Assembly (NCBI GenBank): GCA_009602725.1
Contig: WELB01000003.1
Coordinates: forward strand, 960,064-994,158
Reading direction: 5' to 3'
From: Spirogloea muscicola
Lineage: Eukaryota
DNA length: 34,095 bases
The first letter of the stretch is position 1. Each line of letters opens with the position of its first letter. Positions 9,403 to 22,700 of this stretch are shown piece by piece. The notes below the pieces were generated by a model that was not told the origin of the DNA, ran no database searches, and was given only the letters and a program-made list of their open reading frames with translations. A program made the position numbers and the translations under genes.

Positions 9403-9585
9403 AAATACGCACACGCAGGTAAATAAGCGATAATCAAGAATGGCCGCTTAGTAACCCCTAGTTAGCAGCCGCGTTCTTGTCATGGCCCCATGATGTCTCC
9501 AAGTCATTGCATGGCGCCTCTGAGCTGCTGCGCCCCGCACTGACGAGCCGGCTAGGGCGGCGTGCCGACAGAGCTCCACATCCAG

Positions 9586-11205
9586 ATGCTGCCGCTACCG
9601 CTGTGCTGCGAAGTGAGCTGCCGTCAGCTGCCGCCGTCCGCCACGTTTGCCTCGTGTTGCTGCGCAGGCTGGCCGCTGGCGGCAGGCGGGGCCGGCTGCC
9701 GAGCCGGCGGCGAGAGGAGGAGGAGGAAGGGCCAAGTAGGCGGCGGCGGCTTCGCTTCAGTGGGAGGGCGGAGCTTGCGCAGACGGCCAGTGGTTGCTGC
9801 TGCTACAGGGCCGGAGCACGAGGATGCGGCCACTGCCAGGGGTCCCGGGAGGCCGCCATCAGCTAGCAGGATGCAAAGCCAGGAGGCCATGGCAGGAGCC
9901 ACCAGCGACGACAGTGCGGGTGCTCAAGCTGACGGTCACGAGAGCAGCATGGACGGAGGCGAAGGTGGCGGCCGCAATGGCGGCACGGGGGGTGGTGGGT
10001 CGCCGGGGGACGGGCTCGGTGGTGATGCCGAGGCAGGGCCCCCCTGGCGCGGCTGGCGCCTCTGGGCGGGCTCCGTCCTCATGCAGAACCTCGTCCTCCT
10101 CGCGCACGTCGGCCTCGCGATGTTGTCGCCGCAACGGCGCGCCCGCATGCGCTCGCGATACGGCAATCTCTGGGTGCGTGCGTTCTGGAGCACTGATAAT
10201 AATTGGTGTTGCTCGGCTCCCTCTGAATCTTGAGACCGCCTTGAGCAGAATCAGCTTCGAGTGGCTCAGTCATGCAGGGGATGGCTCATGTACCACATGT
10301 TATATATCTGAACACCCATAGTCTAGACCCTGAACCCTCTCGCAGGACGGAGATGAGGGGGAGGACAGGCAGAGGAGGAAGCGCAGGGGGCGGCAGCAGC
10401 AGCAGCGCCGGCGACGACGTGCCGCTGCTAACGAGGCAGACCAAGAGGAGCAGTGGCGGGCACGGCGGAGGTACTGGCGGGCTTACCGGGAGATGCTGCG
10501 GCAGCGCGAGAGGGCGCAGCGGGCGCACGAGTGGCGTCAGGCAGAGCACGCTGCTGCGGATGGGGCCACAGGCAGCGAGGGGCAGCGAGGTATATCATCA
10601 ACCTCATCATACCTTTGCCTTTCCATGTCAGGCTCAAGGAGCTCAGTGCCAGTAGTAGAATCTGGACATTGGCCTCTACGGTATTAAATGCAGCTCCTAC
10701 CTCGAGCCTTGGTGCCATTTGGAGGCAGTGTGGCTGGGCTTAGGCCCCACACTGGCCGCCTGACTCCACTATGGTGCACCTTCTGAGTCGCACAGTAACA
10801 ACAGCATCTTGAGGCTTCCACTTGCTCAAGAGTCTGCTTGTGGCTCCGCATGCACGTGGGTGCTGACCAGGCAATGCTTTCCTCGTGACAGGAAAGACGG
10901 AGGGGCCAGAACTCACGTATCGACAATACGTGGCAAGGTGGGCGCGAATCACGAACTGCGACAGTGAGCAGCTGACGTTCTTGGACATCCCATGGCCGCC
11001 CGTCTGCAACCCATTGTTCTTGGAGTCTGGCGACTCAGCGGACATCAAGCGGGTCAAGCTGCGGCGTGCGCTGCTGATGTGGCACCCTGACAAATTTGCG
11101 GCGCGGTTTGCGGGCCGTCTCGACCAAGGTGAGCGTGACCGCATTGGTTGCGAGGTAATGCGGGTGGCACAGGAGGTAATTCGCCTCAAGGAGAGGCTGG
11201 CATAA
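9586..11205 (+). CDS. 3-exon protein: possible transit peptide, hydrophobic segment, Arg/Glu coiled coil, C-terminal HPD domain (NFKBIL1-C / J-domain-like)
   Basis: Phase-consistent GT-AG exons 9586-10173, 10346-10589 and 10892-11205. The last exon has LTFLDIPWP...LRRALLMWHPDKFAARF. Start codon uncertain. Confidence 0.65.
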
Positions 11206-12220
11206 GCCATGTCAGATGGGAGGCCGTTATTGTCTCGTCGTATCTTGAGATTGCTTCACTTGTCGTTGAGCTATATGAACGTGTTGGACGACCAGCGAAA
11301 AGACGTGACGGTAGCAGTGGCGCTCCTATCAGCGACTGGATGTCTGTGCACACTTGGTGTAACTCCAAGCCTTGAGCAAATACTAGCACACTTCACAGCA
11401 CTTTGAAGTGTCTCGATTTGCCGCAAGAATCTGGGTTGACTGGCTTGTGCAAGACATTGCCATTGCGCTGAACAGCCTTGGCACATATGGCCACTACCTG
11501 AGCGCAACATTACGACAACTGTTGAGTCTTTGAGTCTAGCAGAGGATGGACTCCTTCCCCACTGCAGCACTGCGCTTGCGCCAGAAAGTGTTTCCACGAA
11601 CTCAGCGCTCGACACTTCTTACTCAGATAGCAACCTCGAATGGTGGGCAGGCTCTTGAGCCTACGTCGGGCCACCCTACTCCAACAAGTCCACGACCAGC
11701 TCACTGATCCCTAGCATTGTACGTCAAGAAGTACGTAGGTATTGCCTTGGCTTGTGTCCTCAAGAAAGCAGAGTCTTACACTTAAAGCTTCATGGTATGT
11801 ATAGTACTATCCAGCTTCGTATCTGATGTTGAGGTTTCCGGGAAGTTCACCCTTGTTCACGCTTTTGGGGTGGCCTCTGCAGCTGTTGCCTTACACTGAA
11901 AGAGCTGTTTCTGTTTCTAATGGCTGGCATTTCACAGCCGATTCTTTCATATCAGCAGCCGCTTTCTTCTAATTGTCACTTGCATATCAAGCACTCCAGT
12001 CAAGCTGCAGTACTAACTCATTTGCTTGATTCCTCGAACAATAACTTTACTTAACTCGCAAGCGCAGCTTGCGATAGTGCTCATCGTCACGCACCCAAGT
12101 GCAGCATTTCGTTGCTGGCTGTCTGCTGCAGGCAGCAGCAATTTGACTGTGCCGTCGGCAGTCTGGCCGCAGCCGCCGCCGGCGCCGTTGCCATTGGCGC
12201 TGGTGCTGGCTACCCGCCCT

Positions 12221-15200
12221 ATGTGCAGCTTGCAGCCTGCGGCAGCCGCGGCGAGCCTCCTCCGCAGCTGCCTGCGCCGGTGGTGGGCGCCCGCGGCGCC
12301 GCCCGAGAGCGCGCCGCTGCTCGGCCAGCGGGCTGCGAGACACATCGACGCCGCTGTCGGCCTGACGACTGGCGCCAAGGCGCCCTCGAGGAGGTCCGCA
12401 GCGTAGCCATGGAGGCTATCTCGCCAACCTCGCGTCTATGTGTTGGCGGTGGCCGTGCCTGACGTCCTGCACAGCATCGCCGCGCTCAGGGAGGAGGGAC
12501 AGCGGACTTCTGCTGCCGCCGCCGCCACAACCGCCGTCGACTGGTCGTTCGCCCTCCGCCTGCTGCGGCTCGCACGGCTGGCACGAGCTCGAGTGAGCAC
12601 TGCAGCTATCACGCTTAAGTCTGGGCTGTAATGGGCAGGACTTGGGCATCAGAGTCGAGGCCTGCAGTGTGAGGCCTAGTCTGGACCTCTTTGACATTGG
12701 CGTGTTTGCATGTGCGCACTGGCAATGGCTTCACCATGGCTCCGGCGCTGAGCTACCGCTGACCAGTATCGTGCAAGTCATATAAGTATATGCCAAGTTA
12801 CGTCGCGCTCTCAGCTCAGTCGCAGCAAGCCCTCATCTTGATCTCCTAGTCTTAGCCCCGCAGCCTAGGCCCTTAATTTGATAGCCGGAGTGCCATTGGC
12901 TGTTGCAGGGTGCTCTGCTCCTGGTGGCGCTGGCCCTTGCCCACGTGCTGGTGACAGCGCAGGTCGGCCAGCTGGCTGGCCTCTTCTACAAGGCGCTGGT
13001 TGATGGGAACGCTTCGGTAGCTGCCCCCGATTCCAAGTGTCAAGGGCCTCAACAAAATCCCATGTCTTTGTATCTACTATGACTAAGGCCAAATTGGTCG
13101 GGGAAGCCCTGTTTTGCACGTAGATTTCCAAGTTCGGGAGCACTTGCCTTGGTGTCACTTATTTTAAATGTTGCTCGAAGCACAACCCAATCCTACTCGA
13201 AACCTGTGCAGAAGCTGACATATAGGGGACTATATTTGGTCTTGTGGGTTACACTGCAATGTCTCAGCTTCAGCATCAATATTAAAAGCCACTTCCAGGC
13301 CCTTTTCTTCATCATTAGTAGTGATGTCTCCATGGTGCTCAAGCTACTGACATACCTATGCAAACTTTGTGCAGCTCTTCTGGCGGGCGGTCAAGTGCAA
13401 CGTGCTGTGGTATGGCCTGGCGACGCTTGGGAGCGCGGCGCAGCAATGGGCGGCGGAGTGGCTGAGTCTGGGGTGGCGCCGCAACCTTACGCGAGCTGCG
13501 CATGAGGCCTACTGCCGCAATGCCGCTTTTTACCGTGTCGGCCTGCACTTCCAGGAGCTGGACAATCCCGACCAGCGCATCGCGCAGGTAGTGACTTGCA
13601 TTGAGCAGCTGCAACTTGCCCCAAGTTGGCACTTCATGACACTCGGCTTCTGGTGGAGCCATCCTCTAATCATTGCCTAGACCTCTGCAGCATTTAGTTT
13701 ACATCCCAATCAAGTGGCTTTGTTGCTGAAGCACAAACACACACAAGCTTTGTAGGAGATCAGCAGCTTCTGCAGAGGGCTGGCTGATTTTCTGGCCAAG
13801 ACAGTGGCTGCCCCGTTCATGGTCCTATACTACGGATGGTGGACCTGGTCCCGTATGGGGTGGTATGCACCTGCCACTGGAGCCCTCTTCTTCCTCATGG
13901 CTGCAGCCTTGACGAGAAGGATCATCTCGCCCATCGCCGCGCTGGTGGCCAAGCAGGACCGGCTGGAAGCTGACTTCCGAATGTCCCACTTCAGGTAGCA
14001 CCATGGGCAGCGGTAATGACTAGATGACAGACTTGCCAGCTAGCTAAAGAGAACTGCAACTTCTTCCGGGCTACTTGTTGTCAACGTTGCTGGTAATTCC
14101 ATGTAACTGTGGGGCTTCATAGGTGCAATTGTCCTGTGGACCGCCATTGTTGACTGACGAGATCCTTCACAGGCTGAAGGACTACGCAGAAGAGGTGGCT
14201 CTCCATGGCAGTGGCCTCACGGAGGCGCACTACCTGGACGCGGACCTTACGAAGGTCCTGACTAACCAGAGGCTCCTTGCAGACCGCCACTTCCTGCTCA
14301 AGCTCGCCACCGGTGCCTGTGACTATTGTGGTCTGTAACCTGGCCTATCATGCTCTTCTACTCATAGAGTGTGAGAGATCTTGTTCTTAGACCTCCTTGA
14401 CAAAATGCCGCAGGTGTACTCCTTACTAAATGTGCAGCATCCTGGTAGTACAAAGAATGGAGATGCAGGCCACCAGTGATCTTATGCTTTTGCTACTTCT
14501 AGCTGACACACCCAGCCGGTGTTCTTGTGCGACCAGGGTCTCTGTCAAGTTACATGGTGCTGGCGCTGATGATCTTTGGAGGACAAGTTGATAGGACCAT
14601 GGACAAAGGCGCCATGGCTCAGCTAATCAGCAACTCTGCTTTTGCAATACTACAGCTCATTTACAGGTAAGAAGTAGTCTCGTGGCTCTGCTGTAATTGA
14701 ACAACTCGTCTTTCGCTAGAAATTCATATCAAAAAGTCGCTGGATGGTCGGCTTCCCCATGATGCTTGTCAACGTCCTTACCAGAGTTGCCTCGTGCTTA
14801 TGAAAGAGGACAGCTTACTTGCCTTTATGGTTTGCATATAATATCTCACTTCAAGCACTGAGCGAGAGCTTCCTTTCCAGCTTCTCTCAGGTCATTGACG
14901 CTTCCAAGGTTCTCTCAGAGGTGGCCGGCGCAGCCTCAAGAGTGGCAGAGCTACTGGAAGTGTTTGACACCGTGTCAACTGATATGAAGGAGCCGTCAAC
15001 TGCTGATCAAACACTGAATCAAGCCAGCTATCCAGCTAAATCAGATGGCAGTATTGGCAGCTACGCACTGGCAATTACGGAGAACCCAGAGCTCGCCTTC
15101 AAAGGACTTCTCATTGGCCCTGTGTCTGTGATCCTCCCCGGTGGTGACGATCTCGAGTTCTCCATCCACCGATGCCCAGTGGAGCTTCTGAGCTTGCTGG

Positions 15201-17467
15201 CTGCAGTCTTTCCCGGGGTCTGCCCAGATGACATGCTCATCGTCCCAACGTTCCAGCGCAGTGCGCTCGACCTCTGCGCTGGTAACGCTGACGACCAAGA
15301 CGAAGTTGCGGAGGAGATGGACCGGATGCTGGCCGCATTCCTGAGCTTCCAGATATCAATCTGTGAGTTTCTCAGAGGAAGGGGCCACTGGGCGGACGCA
15401 ATCGACCCCAAGTCTGGGCATGCGCTTGCGCCCAGTCCAGAGCGCCCAGTTCGGAGCGGCGAGGCCTCAATTGAGGATGGACAGGTGGCAGTCCTAGAAA
15501 GCCGGCTGCCGTACAGTGAAGCATATGCAGCGAGCGTCCTGCTGGGATACGCGACGGTGGAGGCTGGCGCGTGCATCGTGACACGCCACCCAGTATTTGG
15601 CACCCGCTGCTACCCGGCGTCGCTCTTCACTACGGCTCCACTGCAGGACCTGCTCCTTGCCATTGACAAAGTTGGACCATGTAAAAGTTGCACTGGCCAA
15701 GCTCGAGCGACAGGCAGTTATGGTAATGGCGGTGGAGGATGTCATAAGGAGCGGAGTAGAAGTCACAGCAAACCGGATATGTGCGACAGCGGATCTGCAT
15801 CTGAAGATCTGGCCCCTAAAGACCGTCCTCCAGATACAGAGCCACTTTTAGGAGAAGCAAGATGCAATCTGGAAGCCTCAAGTCAACCCATCCTCCTGGG
15901 GATTCATCGCTTGACCTTGTGTGCACCCAGGTCCGATCTAGTTCTCATTAAAGACTTATCTGTTACCGTGGCTGCTAGGAGATCCTTGCTTGTGATGGGA
16001 GACAGTGGGGCCGGCAAGTCCAGCCTCGTTCGCGCCATTTCCCGCCTGTGGCCGCTTGCGGCAGGTCCTATTTCTTACTTGCTCACCTGTTGCCCTTGAA
16101 GCACCACTGCAAGTTAAAACCCACCAGAATGACCCAACAAAATTAAGCATACCTAATTCATAAGCTATGCTTGTGCTATGGTGGCTGCATGACGTTATCG
16201 AGCTCTTTCTGTTTGAAATCTCACCTTCCATTCTGTGCAGCGCGCCAAGTCTAGTACCAATGTGCACCTCTGAATCGTCACAAGAGCTTATACTGCTTGT
16301 ACTGTGTAATTGCCATCAAACTGAGCTTCTTCTTGACAGGCACGGTAAAGAGCACCCCTGGCCTCCGGACCTTGTACGTCACGCAGAGGCCCCTGCTTTG
16401 CCGGGGCGGCCTTGCTGCTCAGATCCTGTACCCAAGGAAGCCTGACTCAATGTCATTCAATGAGGGTACTGCTTTGTGGTTGGAGCACCTCCTCGAGATG
16501 GTGGGCCTCCAGGACCTACTCCGCCTCACTGGCGGCGATTGGAATGTAAGACTCAGATAGGTGACAGCAAACTATGTCATTTGTTCAAGCATTTGCTCAC
16601 ATGTGAGCCACAGATTCTCTTCTGTTAGCATGGGACATAGTATGCATGCATAACCCATACACCATATATGAATGTTGTATGCACACAGATGTGCCAGGAC
16701 CTCAAAAGACCCGGCAAATTGCATGAATGCACAAACAAGTCCTTGCTGTGCTTTTTGCGGTGTCTTGCTTAATTGGGTTAGAGATTCATCTTGAAGCTTG
16801 CTGTGAGCTGATGTCATGATATACCTCAGGTACCTCTTGACTGGAGCCGGGAGCTGTCGCCAGGAGAGCAGCAGAGCCTGGTGCTTGCTCGGGTCCTGTG
16901 CCACCGCCCGCAGCTTGCCATACTGGACGAGGCAACGACCGCCATAAGCCAGCAGGCAGAGGTTGGCTGCTACCGTCTTAGATGCTTCCTGTTGAGAAAT
17001 AATATGTATACCATGATGTCCGGCGTCTTCTACTCACTCTGCTTCTACTTATTCTACTTCTCCTTCTTCTACTTTGAAAAGCATAACTCAGGAGCTGAAC
17101 AATACTCTTGCTTGTGGTAAGACAAAAGAATTCATCATATCGGTCCTTACTACACTACCTCGTAATGTCTGTATGAGCGACAATGACCAATGCCAGACTC
17201 TGTTGGCAGTTTTCTATTTCCTCGACAAGCTGTGGCCATGAGGGCTCTATTTGCTCATAGTCACAGCAATGTGGGCTCTCTTTGTGCTCACAGGCACAAT
17301 TCTATGGGCACCTCTTGGCAAGTGGTACGTGCTTCGTGAGCTTGTCTCATGGCAGCTCGCTGGAAAAGTGGCACCACACTGTGCTCACGGTGCTGGGCGA
17401 CGGGCGGGGTGGCTGGCGCCTTCGGCCATCGACCAACGCCCCTTCAGACAGCTTCCACGCCTCTTGA
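12221..17467 (+). CDS. ABCD4: ABCD4-like half ABC transporter (candidate cobalamin exporter) fused to an internal MMADHC/CblD domain
   Basis: Phase-consistent GT-AG exons: 12221-12393, 12475-12592, 12909-13016, 13375-13587, 13756-13994, 14173-14330, 14537-14666, 14881-16064, 16340-16545, 16830-16961, 17294-17467. Motifs: WRRNLT..H..Y, LDNPDQRIAQ, QDRLEADFRMSH, DYCGSLSSY, SFSQVIDAS.VLSEVAG...RVAEL (ABCD4-like), Walker A GDSGAGKSS, LSPGEQQ, ILDEAT, SLSH. The 5' exons are less certain. Confidence 0.88.
15152..15655 (+). other. MMADHC: MMADHC (CblD)-like domain inside the ABCD4 gene
   Basis: LEFSIHRCP..L...VFP...MLIVPTFQ...DL...EMDRML..F.....IC..LR.RGHWADAIDP.SG...LGY....GAC.V.RHP.FGT....SLFT.A aligns by eye with recalled human CblD VECAIQTCP..FP..MILTVTQ..IC.ALRAEGYWADFIDPSSG..LGF..GCCKVIRH..WGT..SIFTNA. 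Confidence 0.9.
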
Positions 17468-19728: not shown

Positions 19729-22700
19729 TCAAATCGACTCGGGACAGGTTGCTCGTCCTCTCATTGAGACTCTGCTGACTTGTATGGGCACCTCCATCTG
19801 CATGACATTCCAGCCCTGGAGCACAAGCCTCGGCACCTGGCCATCCTTCACACGGAACGTCACCCTGACATCTCGCCGCTCTCCGGGCACAAGGGATAGG
19901 TAGTTGTCTGAGTAGCGCACGGGCAAAATCCTGCCGTCTCCCAAGGTGTCACTGCCGGCAGGTCCCCTGGCAAAAACGGCCAGCTGAAGCCAGAAGGCTA
20001 CGCAAGGCGAGCTGTCATCGTCAGCCTCCTCGGTGCTTACTCGTCCACTCGCTTCGGCAGGCGTGTACGGCGCCAAACGCTGCCTGTGATACTCAATAAA
20101 TCGAGCATGCTCATCCTCGATCGCTGCCTCAGTGGACGGACGTGTGCAGCCACCATGGCAGACCAGGGGCACCAATTCCTGCGATGCAGTGCGCCCCCTT
20201 TTTTCACATGTATTCTCGAGGGACACAGCAACCTCGTACTCATCAGCATTGACGCTCACAGTCGCGATAGCGGACACTTTGGCCTTTCTCTCTCTGAACA
20301 TGCCCTGCAGGGCAGTGTAATCAGCCCCCTCCTTGTGCAGCCAATAGAAGTTGCTCGACAGACTGTGGCCCTTGGAGGTCTCAAGAGCCAAGCTGAGGAA
20401 GTACACAGGGCTGACCCCAATACACGAGCAACTTGGCACCTGCACAAGGACAAAAGTGGACCGGGCAACCTTCATCATCTTCAGCACTCTGCAAGAGCTT
20501 GCAAAGTACACAGGCTATTGATGTGCATTACGCAGCCCAGCAAGCTGAGGGCTAGTCGACTAAGTCTGAAGCATCTCACAACTAATGGCAGGTGTCCATT
20601 CAATGCATTCTTCACATCAATTGACTAGCACATTATTGTGTATTGTAATACTAGTTCCACATGTGCTTGCTAAGGTGCAAGCTTCTGCGCAGTCATTTCT
20701 CCACCCCAATGTAACTCCACACATCTCCTGGGAGATCCTTGAGCTGGTGTAGGGTGGTAAATCAATGTCCTCGTACATTTCTCCGCTGGGGCAGGAACCA
20801 TCGAGATTGAATATGTTAGTCCGCACTTTGGCACTCCTCAGATGTTGTCGCGTTGTGTTGATGACCTGAACAGATACCCAAGTGACATTAGCTGGTGGCC
20901 CCTTTGCAGTATGATGCTCTTCAACCACAGGCCATTGGGCGGCTTTCCTTGTCATACATCCTGTCACAGACATCCTCTTCCAAATTAGAGTGACAGCTCT
21001 CCTTGTGACGCAAAGAAGACTTGAGTCATGAATAAAGAGTGGTAAAAGTGACAATCTTCATGGGCATAACATCAGACTAACATTGTACCTCTACAGCGCA
21101 GTTATGAGGGTTGTACTGGATATGAATGGGCTCCGCTGCAAGTTTGGTACCAAAGAAGCCACCAGTCACATCAAGAAGCGAGTCATAGAGCTGTCCTCTC
21201 AAACCTGGCCAAGGATTCTGGGTCTTCCAGATGAGTAGACCAGTGTACGAGGTCCACATGCGAGAATTCCATGACTCAATCAATGCTCGGTATTGTACAT
21301 AGTTCACCAACTGTGCCTGCACGTCAAATTAACACGATCTTTAGCCAAGAGGGACAAGCTGTAGCGCTACAGGTAAGAAACGTTTTGCAGAGGTTGCTTC
21401 TTTGTCCATAACAGGGTGCAAGAAAGTGTGAGGAGAGCAACAGATGTGATCTCCAATGTATACCCTCATACTGTACTGACAAACTTGAGATGCTCTTGCA
21501 TGCAAATTAGAGGAAAATCTCTAATGCTATACGACATAGAGCCATAGCAAATAAGGCAGGACTGACCTTCTCACAAAAATCATCAAGGTCTGCATAAGAA
21601 CCATACTGAGTTATCTGATTGGGCACCACATTTGGTTGTGAATAAGGAATATAAGTGTGTTGCGTCCATGTGTCGTTTGGCACCTCAATCTCTCCTCCTC
21701 CTGGCTGTGCCATGATGACAGGAGGGCTCCATGCTTCGATAGGCATGGTCGCTCTCACTGTGGCTGCTACTGGCACACCCACGGAGCCTACAGTGCATAC
21801 AAAACAAGGCAGCTTGTCAGCCCTCTCCAGACCTTGCGGGTGCACTAGTGCATGCGTGTCGTACATAACAACAATGTGAGTTACACATGGGTTTTGGATT
21901 CACCAATCTCGGGGTTAAAGGCATACGGGTAGAAGTTGTCCTTAAAATATGTTTCTGGTTCCTGGATTGTGTATGGCCCATCGCGGAAGTCCCCATTCCC
22001 CTTTGCAAAGCCTCCCCAAAGAGAGCCCTGGATGTAGATCCTGCTGCCATCCAAGCACCTGCTGGGGTCATCCTTCTCACCGTGCTGACTACCACAAATG
22101 GATGACGTGCCTGATGAGTGATCTGGTTGACGGTGTGCCAGATGGCAGCATGTCCATGTTGAGGAAGGTAAGGCAGAAGGTGGTGCTTCATTGGAGGTCA
22201 GCCCAGTGGTCCGATCTTGTGAAGAAACCGTTTCGTTTGAGGGCATCTCACTTTCTGCCTCTATATTCTTGTCCACGATTTTCTTGTGGGAGCTACCATG
22301 CAAGTGCAACCAGCTTAGCAGGGCGTCATTGATATTCTTTGCTGGATGCTGCTCATTCCCTCCGACCCACAGAGCAAGGCTGGCATGGTTTCTGAGCATC
22401 TTGATTGTGTCTTCGGGGAATTGGAGGAACATGGCGTGATCAAGTGGCCAACTTGACTCTGATGGCGGAATGCCTCTCCCATTGCAATCTCCGGTGATCC
22501 AGAACTCCTGCCACACCTGATGACCCGAAGCAGAGCAGGCAATTGAGAACCTACCCACAAGCAGACAGGATGGACAAGGTATAGCCTGCAACGATCACCT
22601 AGATCCACCTCATCGATCATTCATTTGTAGGCAACCAATGGGATGGACTGCTTGATGAAAAGTATGTCTCTGTCTCAATGGCAAGGAGCTTGTAACCCAA

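What the first reader, a model, noticed from the sequence alone, without database searches (positions are those of the whole stretch)
14881..16064. ABCD4-CblD (MMADHC) fusion: candidate B12 exporter with a built-in cobalamin chaperone domain
Seen: one uninterrupted reading frame (a single predicted exon) encodes the last ABCD4-type TM helix, a linker, a complete CblD-like domain (15152-15655), a second linker and Walker A (15998-16021). It is therefore unlikely to be a gene-merging artefact. Established: in animals ABCD4 (cblJ), with LMBD1, exports cobalamin from lysosomes, and MMADHC (cblD) acts downstream with MMACHC (cblC); they are separate genes. Inference: this is a Rosetta-stone fusion that tethers the chaperone at the cytosolic exit of the transporter and could channel B12 from the vacuole to CblC or methionine synthase. 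I do not know of this architecture being characterised, but cannot verify novelty.
Basis: partly seen in the sequence, partly recalled or inferred. Interest (0 to 1): 0.92.

Follow-up and report, generated by a model that had tools for sequence, protein, structure and literature searches.

The report
Green-algal B12 exporter fused to chaperone
This algal gene joins a likely vacuolar vitamin-B12 export pump and a B12-chaperone-like domain into one protein, a design found in both main branches of green algae, and the added domain likely catches the vitamin at the pump's exit and hands it on.

Summary
The fusion is real and old. An 11-exon gene (12221-17467, +; modelled 939 aa) encodes an ABCD4/CblJ half-transporter with a folded CblD/MMADHC domain between TM6 and the ATPase domain. 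I found 25 such proteins; all 10 with an organism name are green algae, from both chlorophytes and streptophytes. Their CblD domains form one clade (SH-aLRT 99). Most of the human ABCD4 B12-pocket residues and the ATPase motifs are kept. (1) Chara also has a stand-alone CblD with both vicinal cysteines, whereas fused copies lack the Cys261 cobalt-ligand position (0 of 25) and mostly keep Cys262 (21 of 25). The domain is therefore a diverged paralogue, likely an acceptor at the exit rather than the methionine-synthase loader. (2) All 9 usable N-termini carry a PLL dileucine-like motif and the window's protein has lost the LMBD1 contact residues, so it likely reaches the vacuole without LMBD1. 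(3) Caveat: contigs of one probable RNA run never skip the CblD part, but they place the preceding acceptor 10 nt downstream, out of frame. No paper searched describes the fusion. Nothing functional was tested.

The parts
12221..17467 (+). Whole gene model: 11 exons, 939 aa, ABCD4-type TMD + CblD-like domain + NBD
   Evidence: All 10 introns GT-AG and frame open; equals P0001 from residue 451 plus 6 residues restored by the RNA-supported donor at 14331
12221..12393 (+). Exon 1 (inferred start ATG and cytosolic N-tail)
   Evidence: No RNA depth in bin 12170-12486 and no joint listed for intron 1; frame follows P0001 and is only weakly favoured by homoeologue substitutions
12305..12322 (+). Acidic dileucine-like motif ExxPLL, predicted vacuolar sorting signal
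   Evidence: PLL in 9 of 9 usable N-tails against 0.33 in shuffles
12490..14666 (+). Exons 2-7 (12490-12592, 12909-13016, 13375-13587, 13756-13994, 14173-14330, 14537-14666): transmembrane domain TM1 to first half of TM6, with most B12-pocket residues
   Evidence: Pfam PF06472; alignment to human ABCD4; RNA joints listed for 4 of the 5 introns between these exons
14881..16064 (+). Exon 8: end of TM6, linker, CblD-like domain, linker, NBD start with Walker A
   Evidence: contig pieces 14924-15204, 15310-15445 and 15421-16021 with no differences and no internal joint
14889..14890 (+). Second acceptor AG, 10 nt downstream of the in-frame one; its use shifts the frame and stops at 14985-14987 (406-aa TMD-only product)
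   Evidence: Joint 14663>14888 in contigs of run X1; depth arithmetic fits this placement; translation
15152..15655 (+). CblD/MMADHC-like domain
   Evidence: PF10229; AlphaFold and Foldseek
15317..15319 (+). Met at the position of human Arg197, a marker of the fused clade
   Evidence: M in 24 of 25 fused; K/R in 126 of 127 stand-alone without P0115
15569..15574 (+). Hairpin tip: Ala at human Cys261, Cys at human Cys262
   Evidence: Gap-free alignment to 9MRS and 6X8Z; positions; family counts
15998..16021 (+). Walker A
16340..17467 (+). Exons 9-11 (16340-16545, 16830-16961, 17294-17467): rest of NBD with Q-loop, signature, Walker B with catalytic Glu, H-switch
   Evidence: RNA joints listed for all three introns leading into these exons; motifs

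Best explanation
This is a green-algal ABCD4 (CblJ) half-transporter with a diverged CblD domain inserted between TM6 and the ATPase domain; it likely works as a homodimeric B12 exporter, predicted to target itself to the vacuole, and the extra domain likely catches B12 at the cytosolic exit and passes it on to CblC. Shown: the architecture, its presence in both green-algal lineages, a single origin of the fused domain, the kept B12 pocket and ATPase motifs, the N-terminal PLL motif, the lost Cys261 position and the separate Cys-Cys CblD in Chara. Inferred steps: (1) the dileucine motif sorts the protein to the vacuole or lysosome without LMBD1; (2) ATP turnover moves B12 from lumen to cytosol as in human ABCD4; (3) the CblD-like domain, on flexible linkers beside the cytosolic opening, binds the cobalt through its one hairpin cysteine (the Cys262 position) or holds CblC-bound B12 there; (4) lacking the second cysteine, it would not load methionine synthase by the human disulfide route, which is likely left to the stand-alone CblD.
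For: Domain order TMD-MMADHC-NBD in P0001-P0004. 20 of 30 long hits scanned carry ABC_tran, and 11 of these carry all three domains at E<=1e-5. Named fused proteins: Chara, Chlorokybus, Mesostigma, Micractinium, Chlorella A99, Myrmecia, Tetraselmis, Pedinophyceae, Nannochloris. Fused CblD domains lie on one side of a branch at SH-aLRT 99. The A1 profile scores ABCD4 493 bits and ABCD1/3 about 310. B12-contact residues named in PMC13434180 in the fused set: Y68 14/14, D/E278 18/18, Y279 18/18, Y286 20/20, F315 20/20, D329 19/21, V60 11/14; Walker A Lys 23/23; catalytic Glu 21/21. PLL in 9/9 N-tails; such motifs sort Arabidopsis proteins to the tonoplast (PMC5383025). Of 9 LMBD1 cytosolic-interface residues only Pro483 is kept in the window's protein (read by hand). 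CblF is almost confined to dinoflagellates among algae (PMC11439496). Human C261S MMADHC still binds aquocobalamin through Cys262 but cannot transfer it to methionine synthase. The domain fold is intact.
Against: No binding, transport or localisation data. Human C261S MMADHC forms no complex with CblC-cob(II)alamin, which argues against hand-over to CblC by the human chemistry. In humans CblD acts after CblC has freed the upper axial site, so a CblD directly at the exit is out of order for alkyl- or cyano-B12. 4 of 25 fused copies lack the Cys262 position too. 70 of 126 stand-alone relatives also have only the Cys262 position, so loss of Cys261 is not proof of a changed job. Tyr319, whose loss abolishes human transport, is kept in 0 of 21 and Pro64 in 0 of 14; an aromatic at position 322 (19 of 21) may compensate, untested. 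The one RNA-like run shows only the out-of-frame acceptor ahead of exon 8. Sayer et al. report BLAST-level LMBD1 homologues in Chlamydomonas.
Confidence: 0.55

Rival explanations
1. Scaffold, not ligand: the fused domain docks CblC or methionine synthase on the pump by protein contacts and never binds cobalt itself, taking over the recruiting role of the human ABCD4-LMBD1-MMACHC super-complex.
For: The Cys262 position is lost in 4 of 25 fused copies against 3 of 126 stand-alone ones, while fold residues stay conserved. Apo-MMADHC binds methionine synthase stably. The human super-complex is described in PMC13434180.
Against: Human CblD-CblC affinity rests mainly on the Co-S bond. The two CblC-facing loops carry long, variable insertions in several streptophyte copies. 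The cysteine is still kept in 21 of 25.
Confidence: 0.18
2. Feedback sensor: the domain binds cytosolic B12 and tunes the ATPase, so export slows when B12 is plentiful.
For: It sits between TM6 and the NBD, the covalent link between the two working parts. A single cysteine can bind B12 but not discharge it by the human route. A canonical CblD exists separately in Chara.
Against: Both linkers are long, variable and low in confidence in the model (pLDDT under 50 at residues 399-422 and 598-611), which suits a mobile tether better than a rigid allosteric coupling.
Confidence: 0.14
3. Full CblD tethered to the pump: it takes B12 from CblC and loads methionine synthase, using the Cys262 position as most non-animal CblD proteins may do.
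For: The Cys262 position is the near-invariant one outside animals (123 of 126), and 70 of 126 stand-alone relatives have no Cys261 either. One 154-aa fragment inside the fused clade (P0115) has Cys-Cys.
Against: Cys261 is 0 of 25 fused against 53 of 126 stand-alone (Fisher p 1e-5; 1 of 26 against 52 of 125, p 8e-5, if P0115 is counted as fused; rows are related). Further clade-wide changes: K/R to M, basic to Pro after the cysteine, W to F/H. Chara and Volvox keep stand-alone Cys-Cys CblD.
Confidence: 0.1
4. In this organism the gene is mostly switched off by unproductive splicing, or is decaying, and gives a TMD-only product.
For: The only joint listed into exon 8 uses the out-of-frame AG, carried by contig depth 25.9 (two records that differ at several sites), and the depth arithmetic fits it (41.58 against 41.57).
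Against: Contigs drop variants and this is one run. The frame is intact over 939 codons. Two further full-length fused copies exist (P0002, P0003). The in-frame junction matches human ABCD4 and the other fusions.
Confidence: 0.05

Closest known systems
Human ABCD4 / CblJ (PDB 6JBJ, 24VC, 24VE; PMC13434180)
   Same: Half-transporter without the long ABCD1-3 N-terminus; best match for TMD and NBD; 6 of the 8 highly conserved B12-pocket residues are identical in the window's protein; Asn141, Arg432 and Glu549 are kept.
   Different: About 330 extra residues with a CblD domain between TM6 and NBD; Pro64 to Ala and Tyr319 to Gln; its own dileucine-like motif, where human ABCD4 has no sorting motif and needs LMBD1; LMBD1 contact residues Tyr482 and Gln541 are not kept.
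Human/mouse MMADHC / CblD C-terminal domain (PDB 5CV0, 5A4R, 6X8Z, 9MRS)
   Same: Same fold (Foldseek E 5e-11, TM-score 0.79 by target) and the same hairpin register.
   Different: Covalently part of a membrane pump; no N-terminal extension; Cys261 position absent and Cys262 position kept; Arg197 position is Met.
Green-algal stand-alone CblD (Chara P0018, Volvox P0009)
   Same: Same family; present in Chara beside the fusion.
   Different: Soluble, about 200 aa, keeps Cys-Cys and the basic residue at Arg197; falls outside the fused clade.
Plant CTS/ABCD1, human ABCD1-3, Mycobacterium Rv1819c
   Same: ABCD-type fold and NBD motifs.
   Different: Lower scores (TMD 84 and 79 bits for the CTS halves; whole protein 160-176 bits for ABCD1/3 and 110 for Rv1819c, against 282 for ABCD4). 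The ABCD4 pocket pattern is not kept in the CTS and bacterial controls.

Membership tests
ABCD4 / CblJ | ABC_membrane_2 + ABC_tran half-transporter closer to ABCD4 than to ABCD1-3 or CTS | tested here: met
   HMMER scores; Foldseek first hit 6JBJ by a small margin. No tree with human ABCD4 was built.
ABCD4 / CblJ | B12-pocket residues V60, P64, D278, Y279, Y286, F315, Y319, D329 | tested here: inconclusive
   6 of 8 kept in the window and across the fused set; P64 and Y319 not kept, aromatic at 322 instead.
ABCD4 / CblJ | Intact ATPase motifs | tested here: met
   Walker A Lys 23/23, Q-loop 20/20, catalytic Glu 21/21; H-switch His 14/21, present in the window.
ABCD4 / CblJ | LMBD1-dependent lysosomal targeting (no own sorting motif; LMBD1 interface on the NBD) | tested here: not met
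   By sequence only: own PLL motif 9/9; 1 of 9 interface residues kept (one search read). This is a property of the human protein, so orthology stands.
ABCD4 / CblJ | ATP-driven cobalamin transport out of a lytic compartment | not testable with these tools
   Needs proteoliposome and localisation assays.
MMADHC / CblD | PF10229 above cut-off and CblD fold | tested here: met
   59.5 bits against 27.
MMADHC / CblD | Cys261 cobalt ligand with vicinal Cys262 (human transfer chemistry) | tested here: not met
   Ala-Cys in the window; 0 of 25 fused have Cys261. Also absent from 73 of 126 non-animal stand-alone relatives, so it does not define the wider family.
MMADHC / CblD | Binds B12, complexes with CblC, loads methionine synthase | not testable with these tools
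   Needs biochemistry.
Peroxisomal ABCD1-3 / CTS | Closest similarity to the acyl-CoA importers | tested here: not met

The most novel reading that the evidence does not exclude
Green algae run a B12 import route unlike the animal one: a single LMBD1-independent, self-targeting vacuolar ABCD4 that carries its own CblD-derived B12 acceptor. It arose once before chlorophytes and streptophytes split, divides labour with a soluble Cys-Cys CblD, and in this alga may be throttled by an out-of-frame splice acceptor just ahead of the chaperone exon.
Probability: 0.4. Interest if true: 0.88.

Novelty: new variant of a known kind. Interest (0 to 1): 0.76.

Why it matters
How algae bring B12 into the cytosol is an open question: CBA1 is needed for uptake but is not itself a transporter (PMC10828217), and CblF/LMBD1 is nearly absent outside dinoflagellates (PMC11439496). 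This gene is a concrete candidate for the missing membrane step in green algae. Its own sorting motif would explain how it works without LMBD1. The fusion also ties the orthologue of a human disease transporter physically to a B12 chaperone, and gives a natural one-cysteine CblD for testing which cysteine is the ancestral cobalt ligand. Surveys that score CblD or CblJ by one Pfam domain can count this protein under either name without noticing the fusion.

Tried and rejected
Gene-merge artefact: rejected for the CblD insert (one exon, 25 fused proteins). P0001-P0003 do look merged with an upstream gene at their N-ends (separately spliced contigs at 10172-10905). Peroxisomal ABCD/CTS identity: rejected. 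Word-based homologue searches with alignments A1 and A2 were crowded out and added only P0175, so they say nothing about absence in land plants, Chlamydomonas or non-green algae. No genome is held for this window, so stand-alone CblD, CblC, LMBD1, METH and METE were not checked in this organism. The run search listed no holder on record as RNA; X1 is a guess. A metagenome scan with P0053 returned 80 loci at 25-42% identity, none with a CblD-like stretch in any frame. The ESM Atlas showed only ABCD-type clusters for P0022, none with PF10229 among the rows shown; it did not answer for the CblD domain. The VIA structure searches and a CblD-domain/NBD complex prediction gave no result, so docking of the domain on the NBD is open. 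The TMD+NBD tree groups 17 of 17 fused rows, with 6 short rows dropped. Its printed support was displaced by re-rooting and it holds no true ABCD4, so I do not rely on it. In one search the bacterial rows are out of register around TM6. One search used four wrong exon ends, corrected. The Fisher line miscounted P0115 and was redone. The supplements of PMC11439496 could not be read.
Full report
OBSERVATION. A single open frame spans 14804-16099 on the + strand. Pfam places MMADHC in it at E 5.6e-16 (59.5 bits, cut-off 27), followed by the start of ABC_tran; the upstream exons match ABC_membrane_2. The best PDB sequence matches are CblD and ABCD4. The CblD part starts at 15152 and Walker A at 15998. 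AlphaFold folds 15122-15682 confidently from a 91-row alignment (pLDDT 88), and all 8 Foldseek hits at E<=0.001 are CblD structures. The exon carries the second half of TM6, not a whole helix, and the domain equals only the folded C-terminal part of MMADHC.

GENE. A database protein, P0001, is identical over the region searched, and two further copies (P0002, P0003; 89-91% identical) have the same three domains. P0001 groups with Chara, Chlorokybus and Mesostigma in a rough tree; its gene-id style is, from recall and unchecked, that of a zygnematophyte genome. I model 11 exons from 12221 to 17467, giving 939 aa with all introns GT-AG. P0001-P0003 are longer because they appear merged with an upstream gene.

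RNA. One run, X1, which the tool only guesses to be RNA and holds as contigs, shows GT-AG joints for 8 of the 10 modelled introns; introns 1 and 3 have none listed. Seven match the model exactly. No joint lies inside exon 8. Pieces without differences cover 14924-15204, 15310-15445 and 15421-16021, bridging linker to CblD and CblD to Walker A. So the CblD part is not spliced out. Against my reading: the joint into exon 8 is placed at the AG at 14889-14890, ten bases past the in-frame acceptor. The depth figures fit that placement (41.58 and 41.57 from two bins) and do not fit the in-frame one (13.5 and 46.6); a third reading that leaves out the joint letters gives a start near 14882. Taken at face value this shifts the frame and ends the protein at 406 aa (stop at 14987). 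Contigs drop variants, so the in-frame form is not excluded; it is the form that matches human ABCD4 and the other fusions. This stays unexplained.

SPREAD. A full HMMER scan with the CblD part gave 628 proteins at E<=0.001, of which the best 150 were listed. I Pfam-scanned 30 of the longer ones: 20 carry ABC_tran and 11 of these carry TMD, MMADHC and NBD in that order at E<=1e-5. With P0001 and P0004, 22 of the 150 are fused or fragments of fusions; the other 128 have no Walker A. P0002, P0003 and P0175 bring the set to 25; P0175 misses Pfam MMADHC but hits my own profile at 3e-32. Ten carry organism names, all green algae: Chara braunii (2), Chlorokybus, Mesostigma, Micractinium, Chlorella sp. 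A99, Myrmecia, Tetraselmis, Pedinophyceae sp. and Nannochloris. Both chlorophytes and streptophytes are present. The fused domains form one side of a branch (SH-aLRT 99; 23 fused rows plus fragment P0115 against 36 sampled stand-alone rows; short rows dropped). The simplest reading is a single fusion before the two green lineages split (inference). The searches were too limited to say anything about land plants, Chlamydomonas or non-green algae.

TRANSPORTER. The TMD scores 156.5 bits against human ABCD4 and 84 and 79 against the halves of plant CTS; the NBD scores 125 against 106 and 85. Whole-protein scores are 282 for ABCD4, 160-176 for ABCD1/3 and 110 for Rv1819c; the family profile gives 493 against about 310. 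I mapped the cobalamin contacts of the ABCD4-LMBD1 structure paper (PMC13434180; abstract, results, discussion read) by hand through and counted them (23 fused rows, n = rows covering the site): Y68 14/14, D or E at 278 18/18, Y279 18/18, Y286 20/20, F315 20/20, D329 19/21, V60 11/14. Not kept: P64 (Ala in 12/14) and Y319 (0/21), although position 322, one turn along TM6, is aromatic in 19/21. Walker A Lys, Q-loop Gln and the catalytic Glu are invariant. B12 export is therefore likely, not shown.

TARGETING. Human ABCD4 has no sorting motif and needs LMBD1 (PMC4960490, abstract and opening text; PMC13434180). Of nine ABCD4 residues in the cytosolic LMBD1 interface, only Pro483 is kept in the window's protein; Tyr482 falls in a gap and Gln541 is Arg. 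All 9 fused proteins with a usable N-tail contain PLL, and 8 of 9 fit (D/E)x3-5L(L/I); shuffles give 0.33 and 1.34, never reached in 20,000. Of 17 rows examined, 6 were N-terminally truncated, and P0002 and P0003 were left out because their models read exon 1 in another frame. I noticed the motif before testing it. Such motifs send Arabidopsis membrane proteins to the tonoplast (PMC5383025, passages). CblF is almost confined to dinoflagellates in a survey of plant and algal genomes (PMC11439496, section 9 and passages), though Sayer et al. mention BLAST-level LMBD1 homologues in Chlamydomonas (PMC10828217, passages). Self-targeting to the vacuole is a good inference. In the window, exon 1 has no RNA cover and its frame rests on P0001, the motif and weak substitution evidence.

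THE CblD DOMAIN. Human CblD binds cobalt through Cys261; Cys262 then displaces it onto methionine synthase. The C261S variant still binds aquocobalamin through Cys262 but neither complexes with CblC nor loads the enzyme (PMC12501144, parts 1-2 read; bioRxiv 10.1101/2023.07.25.550549, passages). The window has Ala-Cys at these two places in a gap-free alignment. Cys261 is present in 0 of 25 fused against 53 of 126 scorable stand-alone relatives; Cys262 in 21 of 25 against 123 of 126 (Fisher p about 1e-5, rows not independent). One 154-aa fragment in the fused clade, P0115, has both. The Arg197 position is Met in 24 of 25 fused and Lys/Arg in 126 of 127 others. Chara has a stand-alone CblD with Cys-Cys as well as two fused copies, and Volvox has a stand-alone one. 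The fused domain is thus a diverged paralogue beside a canonical CblD. The model of the Chlorokybus protein shows three well-folded parts joined by low-confidence linkers.

MECHANISM. Most likely (0.55): a self-targeting vacuolar B12 exporter whose tethered domain takes B12 at the cytosolic opening through its single cysteine, or holds CblC-bound B12 there, and passes it on, leaving METH loading to the soluble CblD. Rivals: a pure scaffold for CblC or METH (0.18), a feedback sensor (0.14), a full tethered CblD (0.10), or a gene mostly silenced by splicing in this organism (0.05). I put the fusion itself and its ABCD4 orthology above 0.9 and B12 as the substrate near 0.85.

NOVELTY. Seven paper searches aimed at the fusion found no description of it: ABCD4+MMADHC+algae+fusion, 0 papers; CblJ/CblD/streptophyte, 30 of 187 listed; ABCD4+Chlamydomonas+cobalamin; PF10229; MMADHC+Chlamydomonas; CblD/CblJ/fused/green algae; ABCD+green algae+vitamin B12. 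Most hits were seen as listings only. Dorrell et al. treat CblD and CblJ as separate proteins in the passages read; their supplements could not be read and may list these domains. PMC8085122 (passages) has no 'fusion' or 'ABCD4'. Subscription journals are not covered. The proteins sit in public databases as plain ABCD4 or hypothetical proteins. This scan's index held no look-alike. Both parts are known; the architecture, the degenerate cysteine pair and the own sorting signal make it a new variant of a known kind. Interest 0.76.

Noticed in passing
window 14667-14890: Two acceptor AGs 10 nt apart ahead of the fused exon; the contigs of run X1 use the out-of-frame one. Possible unproductive splicing, unexplained.
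   Followed up: partly
window 9556-11205 (+): A separate upstream gene with its own GT-AG joints (10172>10345, 10587>10890) and a WHPDKF motif; no Pfam hit in two of its ORFs. Database models P0001-P0003 join it to the ABCD4 gene, probably wrongly.
   Followed up: partly
window 14314-14336: P0001 uses an earlier donor and omits six residues, including the Asp278/Tyr279 B12-pocket equivalents; the RNA joint 14329>14536 restores them.
   Followed up: yes
window 16045-16286: A contig of depth 5.6 reads from exon 8 into the next intron: retained intron, pre-mRNA or DNA.
   Followed up: no
window 19729-20514 (-): ORF with an Ig_GlcNase domain (PF18368, E 1e-15), probably the end of a glycoside hydrolase gene.
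   Followed up: no
P0008-P0152 (stand-alone CblD relatives): Outside animals the Cys262 position is nearly invariant (123 of 126) while Cys261 is variable (53 of 126), the reverse of what the human cobalt-ligand assignment would suggest.
   Followed up: partly
P0005, P0007, P0010, P0011, P0067: These fused copies carry very long low-complexity insertions inside the CblD domain, at the loops that face CblC in the human complex.
   Followed up: no
P0030, P0093, P0006: Single proteins joining MMADHC to a GDSL lipase (P0030) or to MmgE/PrpD (P0093), and a Chara fusion joined to a retroelement (P0006); probably gene-model merges, not checked.
   Followed up: no
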